Origin: Octopus vulgaris
Lineage: Eukaryota
DNA length: 64,000 bases
Assembly (NCBI GenBank): GCA_951406725.2
Contig: OX597816.1
Location: 31,062,001 to 31,126,000, forward strand
Direction: 5' to 3'
Shown: one piece after another, positions 1,640-64,000 of the stretch
Position numbering within the stretch: position 1 is the stretch's first letter
Layout: every line of letters begins with the position of its first letter
Position numbers and translations under genes: made by a program
Notes under the pieces: model-generated
Seen by the model: only the letters and a program-made list of their open reading frames with translations
Database searches by the model: none
Told to the model about the DNA's origin: nothing

Positions 1640-2603
1640 AGATCTTTTCTTGTTCATGGGCAGCTCGATTAATTAATTTTCTTTAAATAAATACTTTGAA
1701 ACTCCATATACTGTTAGAATGTATCATGTAGAACATCTTTCAATCTTAGCGTTGTTGAGAAAAGTTTCTATTTACGAACTTGATTCGTATTAAAGTTGTC
1801 GTATTTTGGTAATTTCAACCAATCAATGACGTGTATTCAGCTGAAAAACAGTACTACTGTTGATTGTCAACAACGACTATCGGCGGCGTATATTTCGTTT
1901 GTCACTCTTAGTTATGACATCGTTCGTACGTTTGTAGTGGGTTAGTTTAGGGTTAAGGGTTATGGTTTTAAGGTTAGGTTTGCGATTTTAGGGTTAGGGT
2001 TACGGGAAAAAGGGAAAGATGAAGAAATTGGAGGGGGAGGGGTTACAGGTGTACAAAATATCTCAAAATTCCGATTTTTGGCAATTTTCCGGAATCTCCG
2101 TATCCGAAATATGTGGGTTTTTGGTCTAAACAATTTAAAAAAACAACAATAATTTGCGAGAGAATGGGGTCCTGTGACGGTAGGAAATCTTTCCGAAAAT
2201 AGTTTCTGAAAACAAGAAATAAATCCTAAAGACAGTAGAAATGCACGAACGATTATAGTGGTGTCGTGAAGTAAACGTGTTTTAGATACACTCATTCATA
2301 CGAACGTAATTGAGATTAAATATGTCATAAATAAGAGTGACAGACGAAATATACACCGCCGGAAGTTGTTGTTGACAAACAACGACAGTAATTCTATTCA
2401 GCTGAATACACGTCACTGATTTGTTGAAGTTAACGAAATACGACAACTTTAACACGAAATAACTTCGAAAATAGAAAATTTTTGTCAAAAACGTTAAGAT
2501 TAAAAGATGTTCTCTATGACACATTCTACCAGTATACGAAGTTTTAATGTGCTTAGTTAAAGAAAATTAATTAACCGAGTTCTCCATGAAAAGGTTAAGA
2601 TCC
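1640..2603. mobile_element. Non-autonomous DNA transposon (MITE) with ~280-bp TIRs and 8-bp TSD; Merlin-like
   Basis: 1640-1920 is the diverged reverse complement of 2322-2603. Termini are AGATCTT...AAGATCC. GGGAATAT flanks both sides (1632-1639 and 2604-2611). Degenerate TTAGGG-like repeats lie at ~1940-2005. Confidence 0.85.
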
Positions 2604-3759: not shown

Positions 3760-3910
3760 CACATCTTTACGTTCTGAGTTCAAATTCCACCGAGGTTGAT
3801 TTAGCTTTTCATCCTCTCAGAATCGATAGAAAAAAACCATCAGGGTACCAAGATCGATATGAAAGTCTTAGCGTTATATTTAGAAATTGCTGGCATAGTG
3901 CCGAAAGTTT
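3760..3910 (+). mobile_element. SINE type B fragment
   Basis: TACGTTCTGAGTTCAAATTCCACCGAGGTTGATTTAGCTTTTCATCC matches the fuller copy at 48057-48287. Confidence 0.7.
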
Positions 3911-16135: not shown

Positions 16136-16575
16136 CACAAGTTTTTCTTACTACATAAGAGGACAAGATCCTCTCCATAATTTAAATATGTTTGCATTTA
16201 TTCTACTATTTTATTTAACTTCTGCAATATGTATCATATTTAACAACCCTGACATTAATACTTATACAAGTGTTCATATAATCATATATAAATTAAAGAT
16301 GCAACTTTTACATAAATGCATACACGAATTCATGCATACATACGTATGTATGTGTGCGTGCGTGCGTGTGTCTGTGTGTCTGTATATATAAATATATTAC
16401 ATTAATATATTTGTTTTGCAAGATTCTTGATGTGAAATCGTGTGTTGAAACAGATATTGTTGTATTTAGGAATTGTCATGTTGCCAGTTTAGCCAATAAA
16501 AACACACGCACTATATTTTTGGTGTTAATTTGCTTCAGCTTTATTTATTTTTTACATTAATCTTAATTTTATTTC

Positions 16576-16620
16576 GGCAAGAGTTCTTTCGTCACACTTC
16601 TGTGACCTCATCAGTGGTCC
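16576..16620 (-). ncRNA. Minimal hammerhead ribozyme motif
   Basis: GGACCA-CTGATGA-G-GTCACA-GAAG-TGTGAC-GAAA-GAACTC-TTGCC; perfect 6-bp stem II. Confidence 0.65.
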
Positions 16621-16896
16621 TTTGCTTTCTTCTTTCTTATTTGTGTGTTTCTCCTTACTAACGATCACCCATTTTGTATTTTATATTCTTATTGTAAAAA
16701 AGCAAATTACACGAATGTGTATAAACAGGAGATACATATATTACAGGCACACCCCACATATACACACTAACAAAAAATAAAAACACATAGAAGCATATGC
16801 ATGTGCAAGTAAAGACACATACAATAAGAATATAAAATACAAAATGACTGATTGTTAGTAAGTAGAGACACACAAAAAAAGAAAGAAGAAAGCAAA

Positions 16897-16941
16897 GGAC
16901 CACTGATGAGGTGACAGACGTGTGATGAAAGAGCTCTGGCC
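16897..16941 (+). ncRNA. Minimal hammerhead ribozyme motif
   Basis: GGACCA-CTGATGA-G-GTGACA-GACG-TGTGAT-GAAA-GAGCTC-TGGCC. Stem I is CCA/TGG, the stem III region AGAGCTCT is palindromic, and the cleavage triplet is CUC. Confidence 0.7.
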
Positions 16942-17052
16942 GAAATAAGATTAAGATTAATATAAAAAATAAATAAATTGAAGCAAATTAGCACCAAATA
17001 TATAGTGCGTGTGGTTAAATTGGCAACATGACCATTCCTTAATACAACATTA

Positions 17053-17099
<47 letters not shown>

Positions 17100-31114: not shown

Positions 31115-31245
31115 CTTTTCTACTACAGGCACAGGTCTAAAATTTGGGGGAGGTGGTAGTCGATTACGTCGACCCAGTGTTCAAATGTTACTTAATTTAT
31201 CAACCCCGAAAAGATGAAAGGCAAAGTCGTCCTCGATGGAAGTCA
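31115..31245 (-). mobile_element. SINE type B 3' fragment
   Basis: ACTTAATTTATCAACCCCGAAAAGATGAAAGGCAAAGTCG is the reverse complement of the type B core. Confidence 0.7.
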
Positions 31246-32889: not shown

Positions 32890-33092
32890 TCCACTCTACA
32901 AAACATTCTGAAATGTTGGTGGAGGTGGATAATCAATTCCATCGGTCTCAGCGTTTCATTGGTATTTCATTTATCGACCCCAAAAGGATGTACTTCAAAT
33001 TCGACCTCGGCGGAATCTGATCTCAGAACGTAGCAGCAGACGAAATAACGCTAAGCATTTCGCCCAGAGGTTTAACAACTCTGCCAGCTTGC
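32890..33092 (-). mobile_element. SINE type B
   Basis: TTTATCGACCCC..AAGGATG...TCGACCTCGGCGGAAT...CGCTAAGCATTTCGCCC...CTGCCAGCT is the reverse complement of the type B head and core. Confidence 0.8.
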
Positions 33093-33098
33093 CCACTT

Positions 33099-34572: not shown

Positions 34573-34613
<41 letters not shown>

Positions 34614-34614
<1 letters not shown>

Positions 34615-35800
34615 TGGCCTAGACACCTACCTGAAAATCTCTGAGGACTGGATGTTAAAACATGTCTCAAAACATGAAAACCAGAAAGCATCATACTCAG
34701 TAACAAAACAGGCAAAGGAATATCTAAGTGAATTCCGAATACAACAAATTTCGGAATTAGAGATAGACATACAAGAAACAGGCACAGAAAAAGCTAAGCG
34801 CATGAAAACCCGTGCTAAATCTGCGGCCTTAGATATTCTGAATGATAAATGGCAAGAAAAACCTCTCTATGGCAAATACCCAAAGAGAGCGAATAATGCA
34901 GATGTTGACAAAGCCCTGACCCATCAATGGCTAAAGGCCTCTGGCTTAAAATCTGAAATAGAGGGGTTTATCATAGCAGCTCAAGATCAATGCCTACCGA
35001 CAAGAAACTGCCAGGCCAAAATATTAAAGATCAGCAGCAGTCCAACATGTCGTGTATGCCGACAACAAAATGAAACCATAGAACATATGGTCTCCAAGTG
35101 CAGTCTTCTAGCGCATACAGAGTATCTCAACAGGCACGATAGAGCTGCACAATATATTCAATGGGTAATCTGCAAAAAGCTGGATTTGCCCCATGAAAAA
35201 AACTAGTGGGAACACAAACCACCCCCAGTGCTTGAAAATGACCATATCTCACTCTTCTGGAACTTCACCATTCAAACTGACAGAAATATAGATGCAAGTA
35301 GGCCAGACATCATATTGAAAGACTTCAAACAAAGAACATGCCTCCTCATTGATATGACTGTCCCAATCGATATAAACGTATCTGTCAAGACCTACCAAAA
35401 ACTAAGCAAATATAAAGATCTTGAAATAGAAATCAGCAAAATGTGGAACCTGATGACTAAAACAATACCTGTTGTCATAGGTGCTCTGGAAATGATAGCA
35501 AAAGGAGCTAACTACGTAACTCAGATACCAGGAAACCCCAAAATGGCAGAAATTCAAAAGATAGTGCTCATATCCTACGCAAAATACTTTCTATGTAATC
35601 TCAAGGTTTAAAACAAACATTTTATTTTATTTTATTTTATTTTATTTTTTTAGACATCCACCAGTAGAACACAAAAAAAACAACCAAATATATGGCACAC
35701 TAGGCATAACAACAACGTGAACTTCCAACCTGTTGTCTCTTGAGGTCTCCGGGTGAGACTTTTAGCCAACTTGTACAAATATAAAGCAAAAGTCAAACAT
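34614..35800 (+). mobile_element. 5'-truncated RLE LINE (Dong/R4-like) with CCHC knuckle and endonuclease
   Basis: ORFs 34652-35206 and 35228-35611: IIAAQDQCL, CRVCRQQNETIEHMVSKC, RHDRAA, RPDIILKD, LIDMTVP, KLSKYKDLEIE. One in-frame stop. Flanked by (TAA)n. Confidence 0.92.
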
Positions 35801-35830
35801 ATAATAATAATAATAATAAATAAAAAAAAA

Positions 35831-36825
<995 letters not shown>

Positions 36826-45030: not shown

Positions 45031-45642
45031 GTGATTATATATATATATATATATATATATACATACATGCCTACACACGAACGCACACACAGAGAGACAC
45101 ACACACACATATATACATATATATTATTAACTAGAACTCTATTTTATGAAATTCCAAAGGATCCCAAAGTCGGTCAGGGTGATATGGTACTTCTGGATTT
45201 TAGCCTTAACAAGAAGAACAAAATACAAGAACAACAATAATAATAATAATTTCTTGTAATTTTGGCTCAAGGACTGTAATTTGAAGTGGAGAGATTGTGC
45301 AATGTATTTACATTGACTTCAGTACTTGACTGGTAATTATTTTATTGACCCCAAATCTATGGTAAACAATGTCAACCTCTTCAGAATTAGTACTCTTAAA
45401 CTTAAGGGTCAGAATGAATAGCGCTATAAATTCAGTAGTGTTTATTTCTGGGTGTACTTTCAGTTCAGATCTGACATCCGACTCTGGCACTGATTATTTT
45501 ATAACATAGCATTGGAAGTAATCCAAATATTGTGGTAGGAGTACTTAGTTATGTATATCTGTTAGGCCTGCAGCATTGGTTATGTATATAAGTTCATTTT
45601 GAATGAAATTCTTCTAGTGGTCATTATGACAAATATTTATTG

Positions 45643-45820
45643 GGCAAAACGGTTAGCGGCATTTTGTCCATCTTTACTTTCTGAGCTCAAATTCTGTCGA
45701 CTTTGCTTTTCATCCTTTGGGACTGATACATTAAGTACCAGTTGAACATAGAGGGTCGATGTTATCGCCTCGCCTCATTCTTACCGTCCCCAAGGTCCCC
45801 ATGTGTCAAAACTTTGAAAT
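45643..45820 (+). mobile_element. SINE type B (diverged)
   Basis: TTAGCGGCATTT...TTCTGAG.TCAAATTC..TCGACTTTGCTTTTCATCCTTT...TTAAGTACCAGTT. Confidence 0.7.
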
Positions 45821-45950: not shown

Positions 45951-46850
45951 TAAGGTATATATATATACATCGCTGTGTAACTGAAATCATGACCGTTCTT
46001 GATAGCAATATTTGGTTGAATTACGTGATTCTCTTTTCAAGTTAAATTTTTCACAAGATAATATAAAATCATTTTGTCATTTTCCATAAATTTCATTTTC
46101 TGTGGGAGCACAACTTGTGTTCCTTATGCAGAAATCATACCCTAGACTAATCCAACTTTCTCACTCAGTATACGTTTTCTTATCAAATACTGGGCATTCA
46201 CAACCTGATATATGCATGTTATTGTAGTGATTGCTTTTCTTCTATTGTAAGTGTCTGTATTCTGCCATCTTATATTTCCAATCTCCGTTTTCTTCCTGTA
46301 GTGTCATTTATTCTTGATGCACTTACTCTTTGCCTATTGTCGTCAAGCAAATATTGGTAACACATGTGATTACTTGCTGTCGTCTTGATATATTTTCATT
46401 ACTTTCAGCTATATATATTTTTCAAATAAATTCTGTTGCCACTTCATGGCATCTTGGGCAAGCATTTTCTATAAAAAGCCTTGGGTCGATTATTGATTTG
46501 AGAGCGAATTTTGGAAGAGAAAAACCTATTCTGTTGCAAACAAACACTCACGTACACGCAGACAATTATAAATATGTGTCTGCGCGTACTGAATAAGAAT
46601 TTCTGTACGTCTATGTGTATATGTGTGCATATGATAGCGTGCCTCAAATTGTTTGCATCTCACTGCTTGGCATTCTTTTTTTGCTTAATGTTCCGTACTG
46701 TACAGGTTAGGTGAAAATAAGACGGTATAAGCATCAGACATCGAACATGTATTGGAGCCCTTAGAGCTCTTCCAAAGCATGGCACCATAGACAGAATGAG
46801 ATAACACATCTAAGGGTTTCACGAGTTTTCAGGATATTTATAATGAAATA

Positions 46851-46898
46851 GTCTTACAGCTGTTTCTGGGATATTATGGATATCCCTTCATCAGAGAC
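46851..46898 (-). ncRNA. Minimal hammerhead ribozyme (best-preserved copy)
   Basis: GTCT-CTGATGA-A-GGGATAT-CCATA-ATATCCC-A-GAAA-C-AGCT-G-TA-AGAC: 4-bp stem I, 7-bp stem II, palindromic ACAGCTGT and a GUA cleavage triplet. Confidence 0.8.
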
Positions 46899-47796
46899 GG
46901 TGTGAGAAATTATTTGTATTCGTATTATTGTCCAAAAAATAGGGAATATAGAGGGAAATAAGAGAATGAAAGTAGAAATAGGATATATAAATTTATTGTA
47001 GTTGCATTTCTATCTTTCGAGGAATATGGTGTATATAAGTGGTAAAAAAGTTTCCTGTACATGGTGAGTAATTTCTGATAACAGTTCATATTTAGCCATT
47101 TCAAAGCTTGGAGCCGTGGATTCAGTGTCGCTCGTTTGAAAGATCTTTGTGGTGTGAATGAAAATTTGAGAATGTGTTGGTAGTATTTACGGATAGATGG
47201 AGAGAGGAGGGTTGTCTATGATTAAAAAGTGGAGGTAGGTCAAATGTGAAACAGGAAGAGAAAATGAGAGGAAGAAAGGGAGAAAAAAGAAAAAAAAGAA
47301 AAAGGAAAGACACAATCAAAGAGTGAAATAAAACAAAAAAATCAAGAAATGGTGAAGGATGGGAGAGAGGGAGTGTTAGTCAAGATAATGTGACGAGAAG
47401 ATGGGAGAGGTGTCGGGGAGGGAGAGGAAAAGAAGTTAAGGAGTACAAGAATGTGAGATATTCGAGTAGAGGTGATATGACAAAGCTGCACGTAGGGATG
47501 GGCAGAGAAAAGTTAAGGGTGGAGTGATACCGAAATCAGTAGTAGTTTTGGTAGTAAAATCTAAGGGGAACAGAAGAATACAAGGATATGAAATTACTAT
47601 AAATAAACGTATGTGATAGGTTAGTGATACGTAGCAATAGGAGAAAAATGTATATTTGCGAATATGTATATATATACATACGCACACACATACACACTCA
47701 TATAGACATATACATACACACGCATATATACACATGCATGGTCACGTGCACCCATAGATGTATTCGCACAAGCATATGTTTATACGCGTAATCACA

Positions 47797-48440
47797 GGGA
47801 TGCGGGTTCGAGCCTCATGGCTGGCCGGTAACGAATTTTTCTGCAATATATGGATAGTTTATCCTGTTCATGCTATTGTATTAGCATTATCATGCGCTTG
47901 AGAATAATCTCTATATCTTTCAACATATTTTAACAACTCTAAAGCAAACATTGTTTACTCTCATCGTAAGCTGAAATTAGTGTTAGCGACTTATAAAGCT
48001 AGATATATAAATCCTAAAATTAAAGAACAATTCGTCACTGGGCAGTTTATCTAAAGGGCGGCGAACTGGCACAATCGTTAGCAGGCCGGGCGAAATGCCT
48101 AGCGGTATTTCGTCTGCGTTACGTTGTGAGTTCAAATTCCGCCGAGGTCGACTTTGCCTTTCATCATTTCGGGGTCGATAAATTAAGTACCAGTTACGCA
48201 CTGGGTCGATGTCATCAACTTAATACCTATGTATCTCCTTGTTTATCCCCTTTGTGTTTAGCCCCTTGTGGGTAATAAAGAAATAGGTAAAACACTTGAC
48301 GTATAAGCACTGGGATGTGAATTCGAGTTTTGTCTGGGAGGTAACGGATTTTTCTGCAATATATAGATAGTTTTTCCTGTCCACGATATTGTATTAGCAT
48401 TATCATGCGTTTGAGAATAATTTATCTCTTTATCTTACAA
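47797..48440 (+). repeat. Two ~130-bp direct repeats (47797-47930, 48312-48440) bracketing a SINE
   Basis: Shared GGGATG...TTCGAG...GGTAACG.ATTTTTCTGCAATATAT.GATAGTTT.TCCTGT...TATTGTATTAGCATTATCATGCG.TTGAGAATAAT, with a B-box-like GGTTCGAGCC. Confidence 0.8.
48057..48287 (+). mobile_element. SINE type B, full length (tRNA head, Meta-domain-like core)
   Basis: A box TGGCACAATCG, B box GAGTTCAAATTCC, core GGTCGACTTTGCCTTTCATC.TTTCGGGGTCGATAAATTAAGTACCAG, tail CCCCTTGTGGGTAATAAAGAAAT. Confidence 0.85.
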
Positions 48441-48604
48441 ACATAAATTTTTACCTAAACTTTTGTTTCTTCATATACCAAGTTATATAATGTCAAACGT
48501 CTCGGGTTCGACCTGAGCAATTCCAAGCTATAAATTAAAAAGCTTTTTCGAAAGAAAACAAACAATATATACATACATACATACATATATATATATATAT
48601 AATT

Positions 48605-51358: not shown

Positions 51359-51564
51359 GATTCCCCTATTCGCTTAAAATTAATACGGTTTCAAGAAATA
51401 AGTTGGATAAATTTTCTAGAGAGGAAAATAATAAGATGCAGAAAGTAAATAGGATAAAATGGATTCCCCTATTCGCTTAAAATTAATACGGTTTCAAGAA
51501 ATAAGTTGGATAAATTTTCTAGAGAGGAAAATAATAAGATGCAGAAAGTAAATAGGATAAAATG
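51359..51564. repeat. Exact 103-bp tandem duplication
   Basis: GATTCCCCTATTCGC...GGATAAAATG occurs twice (51359-51461 and 51462-51564). Confidence 0.95.
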
Positions 51565-63382: not shown

Positions 63383-63434
63383 TACATATTTGTGTATGTG
63401 TTACGATAGTTTAAGAAAAATATTTGTTTCATAT
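63280..63434. repeat. Palindrome centred on (TA)n
   Basis: ATATGAAACAAAT...CTTAAACT.TCGTAACACATACACAAATATGTA-(TA)n-TACATATTTGTGTATGTGTTACGA.AGTTTAAG...ATTTGTTTCATAT. Confidence 0.9.
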
Positions 63435-63469
63435 CTAGCGTGAACTACACATCTCTTCAGTTTCTCTAA

Positions 63470-64000
63470 GCATTAACCGTTCTCTGCAAAGAATGTTTGC
63501 TTCAAAACACGAGAACGCCGGTGATAGTTCAAGAAATAATCCTCTTTAAATGTATGGCGAGGCGAGTTGTCTTCCTTCACTTGATAGCTAGGTTTTCCAA
63601 TTTTGAAGTAAACATTTCCGAAAATGTGGACAACTCTCCACGGCTTCCATCCTGGAGTTATGGTAGCTTCCTGACTCATGTGAGTTCATGAGAATTATAA
63701 ATCTTTATGGTAAACACAATTTACACAGTCTTGATCCATTACGACAGGGTCCACAAATTTCCAATAACTTCCGCCTGATGTTAAAGGGCGTATGATCGTC
63801 CTTTAGTCGCTATACGTATGCTGCAATGGTTGTTGTGTTCTATTTTACCGGGTCCCTAAAAGATCTGTGATTGCTCAGGCAAATTAAAAATCTGTATTCA
63901 CAAGATCTGACACAAATTTTACTTTGTGTCCCTGTGATGGCATTGGTGTTATTGATATTTGTGCTGCTTCTGTTTGAGGCTATCTTTGCTTGGTACACTG
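63470..64000 (-). mobile_element. Decayed RTE-like LINE RT fragment (runs off the window)
   Basis: QEATI...YFKIGKPSYQ...SP resembles the RTE motif QEATVR...WFKIGKGVRQGCILSP. Confidence 0.5.

What the first reader, a model, noticed from the sequence alone, without database searches (positions are those of the whole stretch)
46851..46898. Intact-looking hammerhead on the minus strand
The RNA GUCU-CUGAUGA-A-GGGAUAU-CCAUA-AUAUCCC-A-GAAA-C-AGCU-G-UA-AGAC has every core nucleotide, a perfect stem I and stem II, a self-complementary ACAGCUGU and a GUA triplet. Predicted cleavage is between + coordinates 46855 and 46854. The A.A opposition next to the core is non-canonical. It is the best candidate here for present-day activity.
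Basis: partly seen in the sequence, partly recalled or inferred. Interest (0 to 1): 0.7.

Follow-up and report, generated by a model that had tools for sequence, protein, structure and literature searches.

The report
Penelope-type hammerhead in an octopus repeat
The 48 bases are a real hammerhead-ribozyme motif at the end of an old copy of a very abundant repeat, likely a Penelope-like jumping gene of an octopus; this kind is already published, its odd A·A pair fits the published pattern, and this lone copy is predicted to cut itself little or not at all.

Summary
The motif is there as described, and no shuffle matches it (0 of 300). It ends a dispersed repeat (about 46800 to at least 47640). 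Over the hammerhead, contig depth in one sequencing run is 2,200-2,600 times that of the unique flank. The longest listed pieces of other copies differ by 10-18%, so the copy is old. The anatomy is the published Penelope-like-element (PLE) hammerhead: short stem I, long stem II, palindromic stem III. The 'A·A opposition' is an extra base on each side of a normal G10.1-C11.1 pair. The 2014 descriptor allows both extras, and 16 of 31 tabulated PLE hammerheads have a mismatch there, none A·A. Present-day activity is unlikely: the monomer fold is predicted at 0.03-0.16%, the favoured fold is a dimer, and no partner lies in the window. No PLE reading frame was found in this copy, so the PLE link is inferred. 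Cleavage was not tested. A new member of a known kind, of low interest.

The parts
46851..46898 (-). Type I hammerhead motif of the PLE kind (whole)
46895..46898 (-). Stem I, 5' strand (4 bp with 46851-46854)
46888..46894 (-). Core C3-U4-G5-A6-U7-G8-A9
46887..46887 (-). Extra A between A9 and G10.1 (N10), the usual state in PLE hammerheads
   Evidence: PMC4209133
46868..46886 (-). Stem II, 7 bp opening with G10.1-C11.1, 5-nt loop at 46875-46879
   Evidence: predicted pairing 0.87-0.91
46867..46867 (-). Extra A between C11.1 and G12 (N11); with 46887 it makes the A.A opposition
   Evidence: no gap row at this place among 12 of 73 shown
46863..46866 (-). Core G12-A13-A14-A15.1
46856..46863 (-). 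Palindromic stem/loop III: 2 bp plus tetraloop as a monomer, predicted 8-bp helix in a dimer
46854..46855 (-). Predicted cleavage site, 3' of A17 of the GUA triplet (not tested)
   Evidence: hammerhead numbering
46800..47640 (-). Host repeat copy: dispersed, pyrimidine-rich (68% on the minus strand), likely 5'-truncated PLE end. 3' edge lies in the 46788-46836 bin; 5' edge is at or beyond 47640
46849..46907 (-). Block with the highest contig depth; best-supported loose ends cluster at 46848-46851 and 46907-46909
   Evidence: tables 2 and 7
47650..47790 (.). TA/CA-rich microsatellite-like stretch abutting the repeat's 5' side

Best explanation
This is a type I hammerhead motif at the 3' end of an old copy of a high-copy dispersed repeat, likely a 5'-truncated Penelope-like element of an octopus, and it is predicted to cut only as a dimer, so this solo copy is likely close to inert. 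Shown: the motif, the high-depth repeat around it, 10-18% divergence from the longest listed pieces of other copies, and no second copy in the window. Predicted: stem III (2 bp + tetraloop) barely forms alone, while two molecules pair their ACAGCUGU palindromes into an 8-bp helix and swap stem I strands. Inferred from published PLE work: in the parent element's tandem transcript two such motifs, perhaps helped by the element's protein, would cut after A17 by the standard 2'-OH transesterification and trim the RNA. Inferred: the extra A before G12 is likely a family trait (about 70%) rather than damage in this copy.
For: Not chance: 0 of 300 shuffles. Repeat: hammerhead bins 90,857 and 96,755 against flank 40.6 in X9 (about 2,200-2,600x) and 19,332 and 11,766 against 4.46 in X11; the rest of the element is 5-580x in the X9 bins computed. 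The tool warns that summed depth is not a copy number. Age: 28 non-orthologous pieces listed differ 9.8-18.3%, median 14.5%. The insertion is shared with run X11, which has another organism label (47257-47640, 2 differences in 384). Anatomy matches PMC4209133: long helix II, short helix I, base between 9 and 10.1, G10.1-C11.1, palindromic 15.2-16.2, mostly single truncated copies. Fig. S7 descriptor allows extra N10 and extra N11. Near-identical ACAG/CUGU stem III plus A17 occurs in Hydra-clade PLE hammerheads. An opposite-strand joint 46860->47120 in X9 and X11 fits the inverted arrangement typical of PLEs. Folding: monomer hammerhead fraction 3e-4 to 1.6e-3; the double hammerhead is the minimum-energy dimer of the 48-mer (-30.7 kcal/mol), Kd about 0.4 uM. 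Published: S. mansoni PLE monomer did not cleave and dimers cleaved weakly; anole Poseidon hammerhead did not cleave without protein. Host: the window's 63412-63460 motif matches Hydra-1_oBim at 32 of 33 letters.
Against: No RT or GIY-YIG frame was found in or beside this copy. 0 Pfam hits in the element's frames (145 of 597 stop-to-stop frames scanned; only hit zf-RVT at 34574-35203). Three homologue searches were blank. No similarity to the window's own Hydra-type endonuclease end (299 of 500 shuffles as good). The family is not in the Craig et al. supplement by motif search. The 20 nt upstream are only 30% U, against the 'U-rich' consensus. With flanks added, the lowest-energy dimers keep the 8-bp helix but not the swapped stem I. 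Covariation across copies could not be counted. A similar monomer with a weak stem III cleaved 22% in 1 h.
Confidence: 0.75

Rival explanations
1. The motif belongs to a non-autonomous hammerhead-bearing repeat (SINE-like or retrozyme-like) that PLE proteins mobilise, not to the end of an autonomous PLE.
For: No coding remnant was found. The hammerhead block is far deeper than the adjoining sequence (104,024 at 46873 vs 6,002 at 46910 in X9). A 2026 preprint links animal retrozymes to PLE pLTRs (part 1 of 5).
Against: No tandem units at this locus. None of the 15 joints shown (of 30) is a well-supported head-to-tail joint; the highest joint depth is 68. The element exceeds 800 nt, against 150-450 bp for retrozyme units. 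Retrozyme hammerheads have 6-bp stem I and 4-bp stem II.
Confidence: 0.14
2. One reading: this copy is transcribed and self-cleaves today, as a monomer or by pairing in trans with transcripts of sister copies.
For: All core bases and all three stems are intact. Family sequence is present in two runs guessed to be RNA (X1, X4), and X1 holds an exact 229-nt piece of this locus (47218-47446). Predicted dimer Kd is 0.04-0.4 uM. An axolotl monomer precedent exists.
Against: The monomer fold is under 0.2% and no partner lies in cis. A.A is expected to be worse than U.U, the best tolerated mismatch there. The exact X1 piece does not cover the hammerhead; contigs show no strand or ends, and the RNA label is a guess. 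Intactness needs no selection (expected 1.8 private changes in 48 nt, P(0) about 0.16; a rough figure from 28 of 40 shown rows).
Confidence: 0.08
3. The extra A at 46867 is a private mutation (for example of a U that paired with A 46887), and this copy is a damaged ribozyme.
For: Only 40 of 316 substitution rows are shown, so a majority substitution at 46867 is not excluded. The copy carries many private changes elsewhere (28 of 40 shown rows at >=80% in X9).
Against: No gap row at 46867 among 12 of 73 shown, which go down to a 4.9% share. No substitution row inside 46851-46898 among the 40 shown. No loose-end cluster at 46867 among 24 of 542 shown. G-C at the base of stem II plus extra N10 is the PLE norm.
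Confidence: 0.25
4. Chance match to the hammerhead pattern.
For: Rfam finds nothing; MFE z is only -1.6.
Against: 0 of 300 shuffles. The motif is the deepest block of a repeat family and has the published features that my descriptor did not ask for.
Confidence: 0.01

Closest known systems
PLE hammerheads with a small palindromic helix III (Cervera and De la Pena 2014, PMC4209133; e.g. Drosophila willistoni, Saccoglossus kowalevskii rows of Fig. S3)
   Same: Type I, 4-bp stem I, 7-bp stem II, base between A9 and G10.1, G10.1-C11.1, palindromic helix III (AGCU loop and A17 in the D. willistoni row), thousands of dispersed single copies, dimer-dependent.
   Different: Has the extra base before G12 as well. 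The descriptor allows it, but only 1 of 56 cells in Fig. S3 reads AGAAA (row order not kept, the Cotesia row if it is). No cephalopod is among the 56. No ORF link shown here.
Hydra-clade PLE hammerheads (Craig et al. 2021, PMC8557442, File S2), including Hydra-1_oBim of Octopus bimaculoides
   Same: ACAG...CUGU stem III with A17 in Penelope-1_NV, Hydra-1_aMil and Penelope-1_SK. A mismatch at the base of stem II in 16 of the 31 elements tabulated (14 U.U, 1 U.C, 1 C.A; my count). (TA)n neighbourhood.
   Different: None of the 31 has A.A. This family's sequence differs from Hydra-1_oBim, and no similarity to the window's own Hydra-type copy was found. Clade not determined.
Poseidon element PAc of Anolis carolinensis (PMC11167929)
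   Same: Hammerhead in the pLTR, with genomic copies ending shortly downstream of it.
   Different: PAc is a full element with a purified active protein, and its hammerhead cut only with protein present. Nothing comparable was tested here.
Metazoan non-LTR retrozymes (PMC7229834)
   Same: Type I hammerhead, weak stem III, better cleavage as dimers; Amex2 has a mismatch at the base of stem II.
   Different: Retrozymes are 150-450-bp tandem repeats with canonical loop contacts. This copy is solo and over 800 nt.

Membership tests
Type I hammerhead ribozyme | Core C3 U4 G5 A6 N7 G8 A9 / G12 A13 A14 / A15.1-U16.1 / H17 | tested here: met
   core definition from PMC3088659
Type I hammerhead ribozyme | Stems I, II and III can form, with open ends in stem I | tested here: met
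   4, 7 and 2 bp (8 bp in a dimer)
Type I hammerhead ribozyme (strict, Perreault 2011 filter) | No mispair directly next to the core at N10.1-N11.1 | tested here: not met
   A 46887 opposes A 46867; that filter rejects such hits unless activity is measured
Type I hammerhead ribozyme | Site-specific self-cleavage after H17 | not testable with these tools
   Only contigs were laid; they show no RNA ends
Rfam hammerhead families | Score at the gathering threshold | tested here: not met
PLE hammerhead (Cervera and De la Pena 2014) | Long helix II, short helix I, base between 9 and 10.1, G10.1-C11.1, optional extra N11 | tested here: met
PLE hammerhead (Cervera and De la Pena 2014) | Palindromic 15.2-16.2 and loop 3, giving a dimer fold | tested here: met
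   (sequence shown, dimer predicted)
PLE hammerhead (Cervera and De la Pena 2014) | Many dispersed, mostly single copies per genome | tested here: met
   depth ratios; solo in the window
PLE hammerhead (Cervera and De la Pena 2014) | Compensatory changes across family copies | tested here: inconclusive
   Only a loop II variant is visible in the rows shown (46873/46878); no copies could be aligned
PLE hammerhead (Cervera and De la Pena 2014) | U-rich 5' flank and AU-rich 3' flank | tested here: inconclusive
   5' 20 nt are 30% U; 3' 20 nt are 85% AU
Penelope-like element | Motif lies in the pLTR of an element encoding a PLE RT and (EN+) a GIY-YIG endonuclease | tested here: inconclusive
   No ORF in this truncated copy; no genome is held for finding full-length copies
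Penelope-like element | 5'-truncated, partial-tandem or inverted arrangements | tested here: inconclusive
   One opposite-strand joint in X9 and X11, one contig each; truncation inferred from the depth profile
Non-LTR retrozyme | Head-to-tail tandem units of 150-450 bp, each with a hammerhead | tested here: not met
   no strong head-to-tail joint among 15 of 30 shown

The most novel reading that the evidence does not exclude
An octopus repeat family with thousands of copies has fixed a hammerhead with A on both sides of G10.1-C11.1 (an A.A internal loop), a state absent from the 31 PLE hammerheads tabulated by Craig et al. It still cleaves, and because the family is present in putative RNA runs, dispersed solo copies such as this one could pair in trans through the palindromic stem III and cut host transcripts that read through them.
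Probability: 0.06. Interest if true: 0.5.

Novelty: new member of a known kind. Interest (0 to 1): 0.13.

Why it matters
Modestly. It adds a cephalopod family to the well-known link between Penelope-like elements and dimer-type hammerheads. If the A.A state is family-wide and active, it adds one natural entry to what the base of stem II tolerates. Only trans-dimer cleavage of host RNA by dispersed copies would interest a wider audience, and nothing here shows it. The role of PLE hammerheads is still open in the papers read, but an intact full-length element is a better test object than this old solo copy.

Tried and rejected
No genome is held for the window, so copies could not be aligned. Rfam was blank. 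Pattern scans: viral contigs 0 and 0; prokaryote genomes 0; metagenomes gave 108 loci in 20 distinct contexts, none with stem I >=3 and stem II >=4, so all were rejected as chance. I tried to read the family's base at 46867 through spurious frames across the motif: blank, and the one phmmer hit (P0003) is a repetitive Ig-domain protein with no passing stretch, rejected. The upstream frame 47013-47186 gave no homologue, no Pfam and no Atlas hit. A by-eye likeness of that frame's end to Hydra-clade endonuclease ends was not supported. Sequencing-run search: no RNA holder listed on record. The sigma-70 promoter/terminator scan was blank and does not apply to an animal. Lunse et al. 2017 on PLE hammerhead dimers is not held; I saw only its title and a review's summary, and its alignments may already include this family. 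Paper searches (octopus + hammerhead ribozyme; hammerhead + C11.1 + G12 + insertion) listed no paper on this family or on a tested A.A variant; the library lacks most subscription papers, and Repbase and Dfam were not available. Earlier scan findings by place and by sequence were empty.

Full report
Observation. The minus strand of 46851-46898 carries a type I hammerhead motif exactly as written. It has a 4-bp stem I, C3-A9 at 46894-46888, an A at 46887, a perfect 7-bp stem II with a 5-nt loop, an A at 46867, G12-A15.1, C-AGCU-G, U16.1 and A17 at 46855. The predicted cut is between 46855 and 46854. My descriptor found it as the only complete motif in the window. In 300 block-wise dinucleotide shuffles, 4 gave any loose hit and none a hit this good. 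Folding energy alone is unremarkable (z -1.6) and Rfam misses it.

Host. The window is AT-rich and full of microsatellites. Of 145 frames scanned (the longest non-low-complexity ones of 597 stop-to-stop frames of 45 aa or more), one hit Pfam: zf-RVT at 34574-35203. A second hammerhead-like motif at 63412-63460 matches the Hydra-1_oBim element of Octopus bimaculoides at 32 of 33 letters, compared by eye. It lies just downstream of a decayed endonuclease-like end (by eye). The host is therefore very likely an octopus. No genome is held.

Surroundings. I laid Logan contigs of 4 of the 24 listed runs on 46200-47640 at 80% likeness. In X9 the unique flank has depth 40.6 and the two hammerhead bins 90,857 and 96,755, with 104,024 at 46873: about 2,200-2,600 times the flank. 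In X11 the figures are 4.46 against 19,332 and 11,766. The rest of the element, from the 46788-46836 bin to at least 47640, stands at 5 to 580 times the flank in the X9 bins computed; one bin over a low-complexity stretch was skipped by the tool. The tool warns that summed depth is not a copy number, so I read this only as 'thousands of copies, likely'. The 28 listed pieces from other copies differ from this one by 9.8-18.3%; I left out the four near-identical pieces (records 6, 7, 14, 23), and the 80% cut-off censors the upper end. The locus itself is shared with X11, which has another organism label (2 differences in 384 at 47257-47640). One contig each in X9 and X11 joins 46860 to 47120 on opposite strands, an arrangement described for PLEs. 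No second copy of this family lies in the window, and no tandem unit.

The A.A opposition. Cervera and De la Pena (PMC4209133; I read parts 1-2 of 4 and the whole supplement text) list a base between A9 and 10.1 and a conserved G10.1-C11.1 pair as standard in PLE hammerheads. Their descriptor allows 'a possible extra N10' and 'a possible extra N11'. The motif is thus G10.1-C11.1 with both extras. One of 56 cells in their Fig. S3 reads AGAAA (row order not kept). In File S2 of Craig et al. (PMC8557442; passages, supplement searches and part 2 of 59), 16 of 31 elements have a mismatch at this place: 14 U.U, 1 U.C, 1 C.A, none A.A (my count). Perreault et al. (PMC3088659, passages) note U.U is the best tolerated mismatch, and their strict filter would reject this hit. 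Whether the A at 46867 is family-wide is only partly settled. No gap there appears among 12 of 73 gap rows (shown down to a 4.9% share), and no substitution inside the motif among 40 of 316 rows, but the hidden rows could hold one. I put family-wide at about 70%.

Mechanism. ViennaRNA gives the complete monomer hammerhead fold a share of 3e-4 to 1.6e-3, depending on flanks, with stem III paired 0.5-1.7% of the time. For two 48-mers the minimum-energy structure is the double hammerhead, with an 8-bp intermolecular stem III and swapped stem I strands (-30.7 kcal/mol), Kd about 0.4 uM. With flanks the 8-bp helix stays but the swapped stem I does not. These are predictions. In print, a S. mansoni PLE monomer did not cleave and dimers cleaved weakly. 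The anole Poseidon hammerhead cut only with protein present, core mutants did not affect insertion in vitro, and no RNA-seq ends were found at the site (PMC11167929, passages). On the other side, the axolotl Amex2 monomer with a 2-bp tetraloop stem III and a U.U mismatch cleaved 22% in an hour (PMC7229834, passages). The likely history (inferred) is that the motif served in the parent element's tandem transcript and was copied here with a truncated 3' end. O. vulgaris PLEs cover 6.83% of the genome in 190 families and expanded at a Jukes-Cantor distance of 0.2 (PMC13282606, passages and a supplement search), in keeping with an old copy.

Present-day activity. Family sequence occurs in two runs guessed to be RNA, and X1 holds an exact 229-nt piece of this locus that does not include the hammerhead. 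Contigs give no strand, ends or level, and no holder is on record as RNA. The copy's intact motif needs no selection: 28 of the 40 shown rows are changes at >=80% share in X9, about 3.8 per 100 nt, which gives 1.8 expected in 48 nt and P(0) about 0.16 (rough, because the rows shown are a selection).

What is not shown. No RT or GIY-YIG frame was found for this family, so 'Penelope-like' rests on the hammerhead's anatomy, the dispersed truncated pattern, the inverted joint and the neighbouring PLE copies. Lunse et al. 2017 (not held; seen only through PMC6765202) and repeat databases may already list the family. I also saw part 1 of 5 of the 2026 retrozyme preprint and passages of PMC6155905.

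Verdict. Observation confirmed, interpretation partly supported. It works like, and by the tested features belongs with, the PLE dimer-type hammerheads; membership of its host repeat in the PLEs is likely but untested at the ORF level. A new member of a known kind, interest 0.13.

Noticed in passing
window 63400-64000 (- strand): Decayed 3' end of a Hydra-clade PLE: an endonuclease-like C-terminus with stops, a hammerhead at 63412-63460 matching Hydra-1_oBim at 32 of 33 letters (stem III side decayed), then a (TA)n run.
   Followed up: partly
window 16454-16696 and 16820-17053: Inverted pair (87% identical over 244 nt), each arm with a degenerate hammerhead core (C3 at 16614 - and 16903 +) of a family unrelated to the finding's; typical inverted PLE-like arrangement.
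   Followed up: partly
window 34574-36717: Non-LTR retrotransposon remnant with Pfam zf-RVT (E 3e-6) at 34574-35203 and a tandem duplicate, 35000-35818 vs 35916-36717 at 77%. Clade not determined.
   Followed up: no
window 45642-45766, 48060-48220, 32960-33093, 31158-31241, 3767-3828: Several copies of a short dispersed repeat, 74-85% alike; it resembles octopus tRNA-derived SINEs as I recall them (recalled, not tested).
   Followed up: no
window 47789-47927 and 48304-48445: Two copies of another short repeat, 82% alike, flanking the SINE-like copy at 48060-48220.
   Followed up: no
window 46445-46493: A short stretch with contig depth 22,217 in X9 against a flank of 40.6: a separate small high-copy repeat fragment.
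   Followed up: no
window 51359-51564: Perfect tandem duplication of 103 bp (100% identical), possibly recent or an assembly artefact.
   Followed up: no
window 1946-2004: Short degenerate TTAGGG-type array inside an inverted repeat with arms 1641-1920 and 2322-2602.
   Followed up: no
window 46899-46909 (- strand): The 11 nt just 5' of the hammerhead lie in or at the edge of the conserved block and also occur twice in the 3' UTR text of a Hydra-clade coral element seen; post hoc and possibly chance.
   Followed up: no
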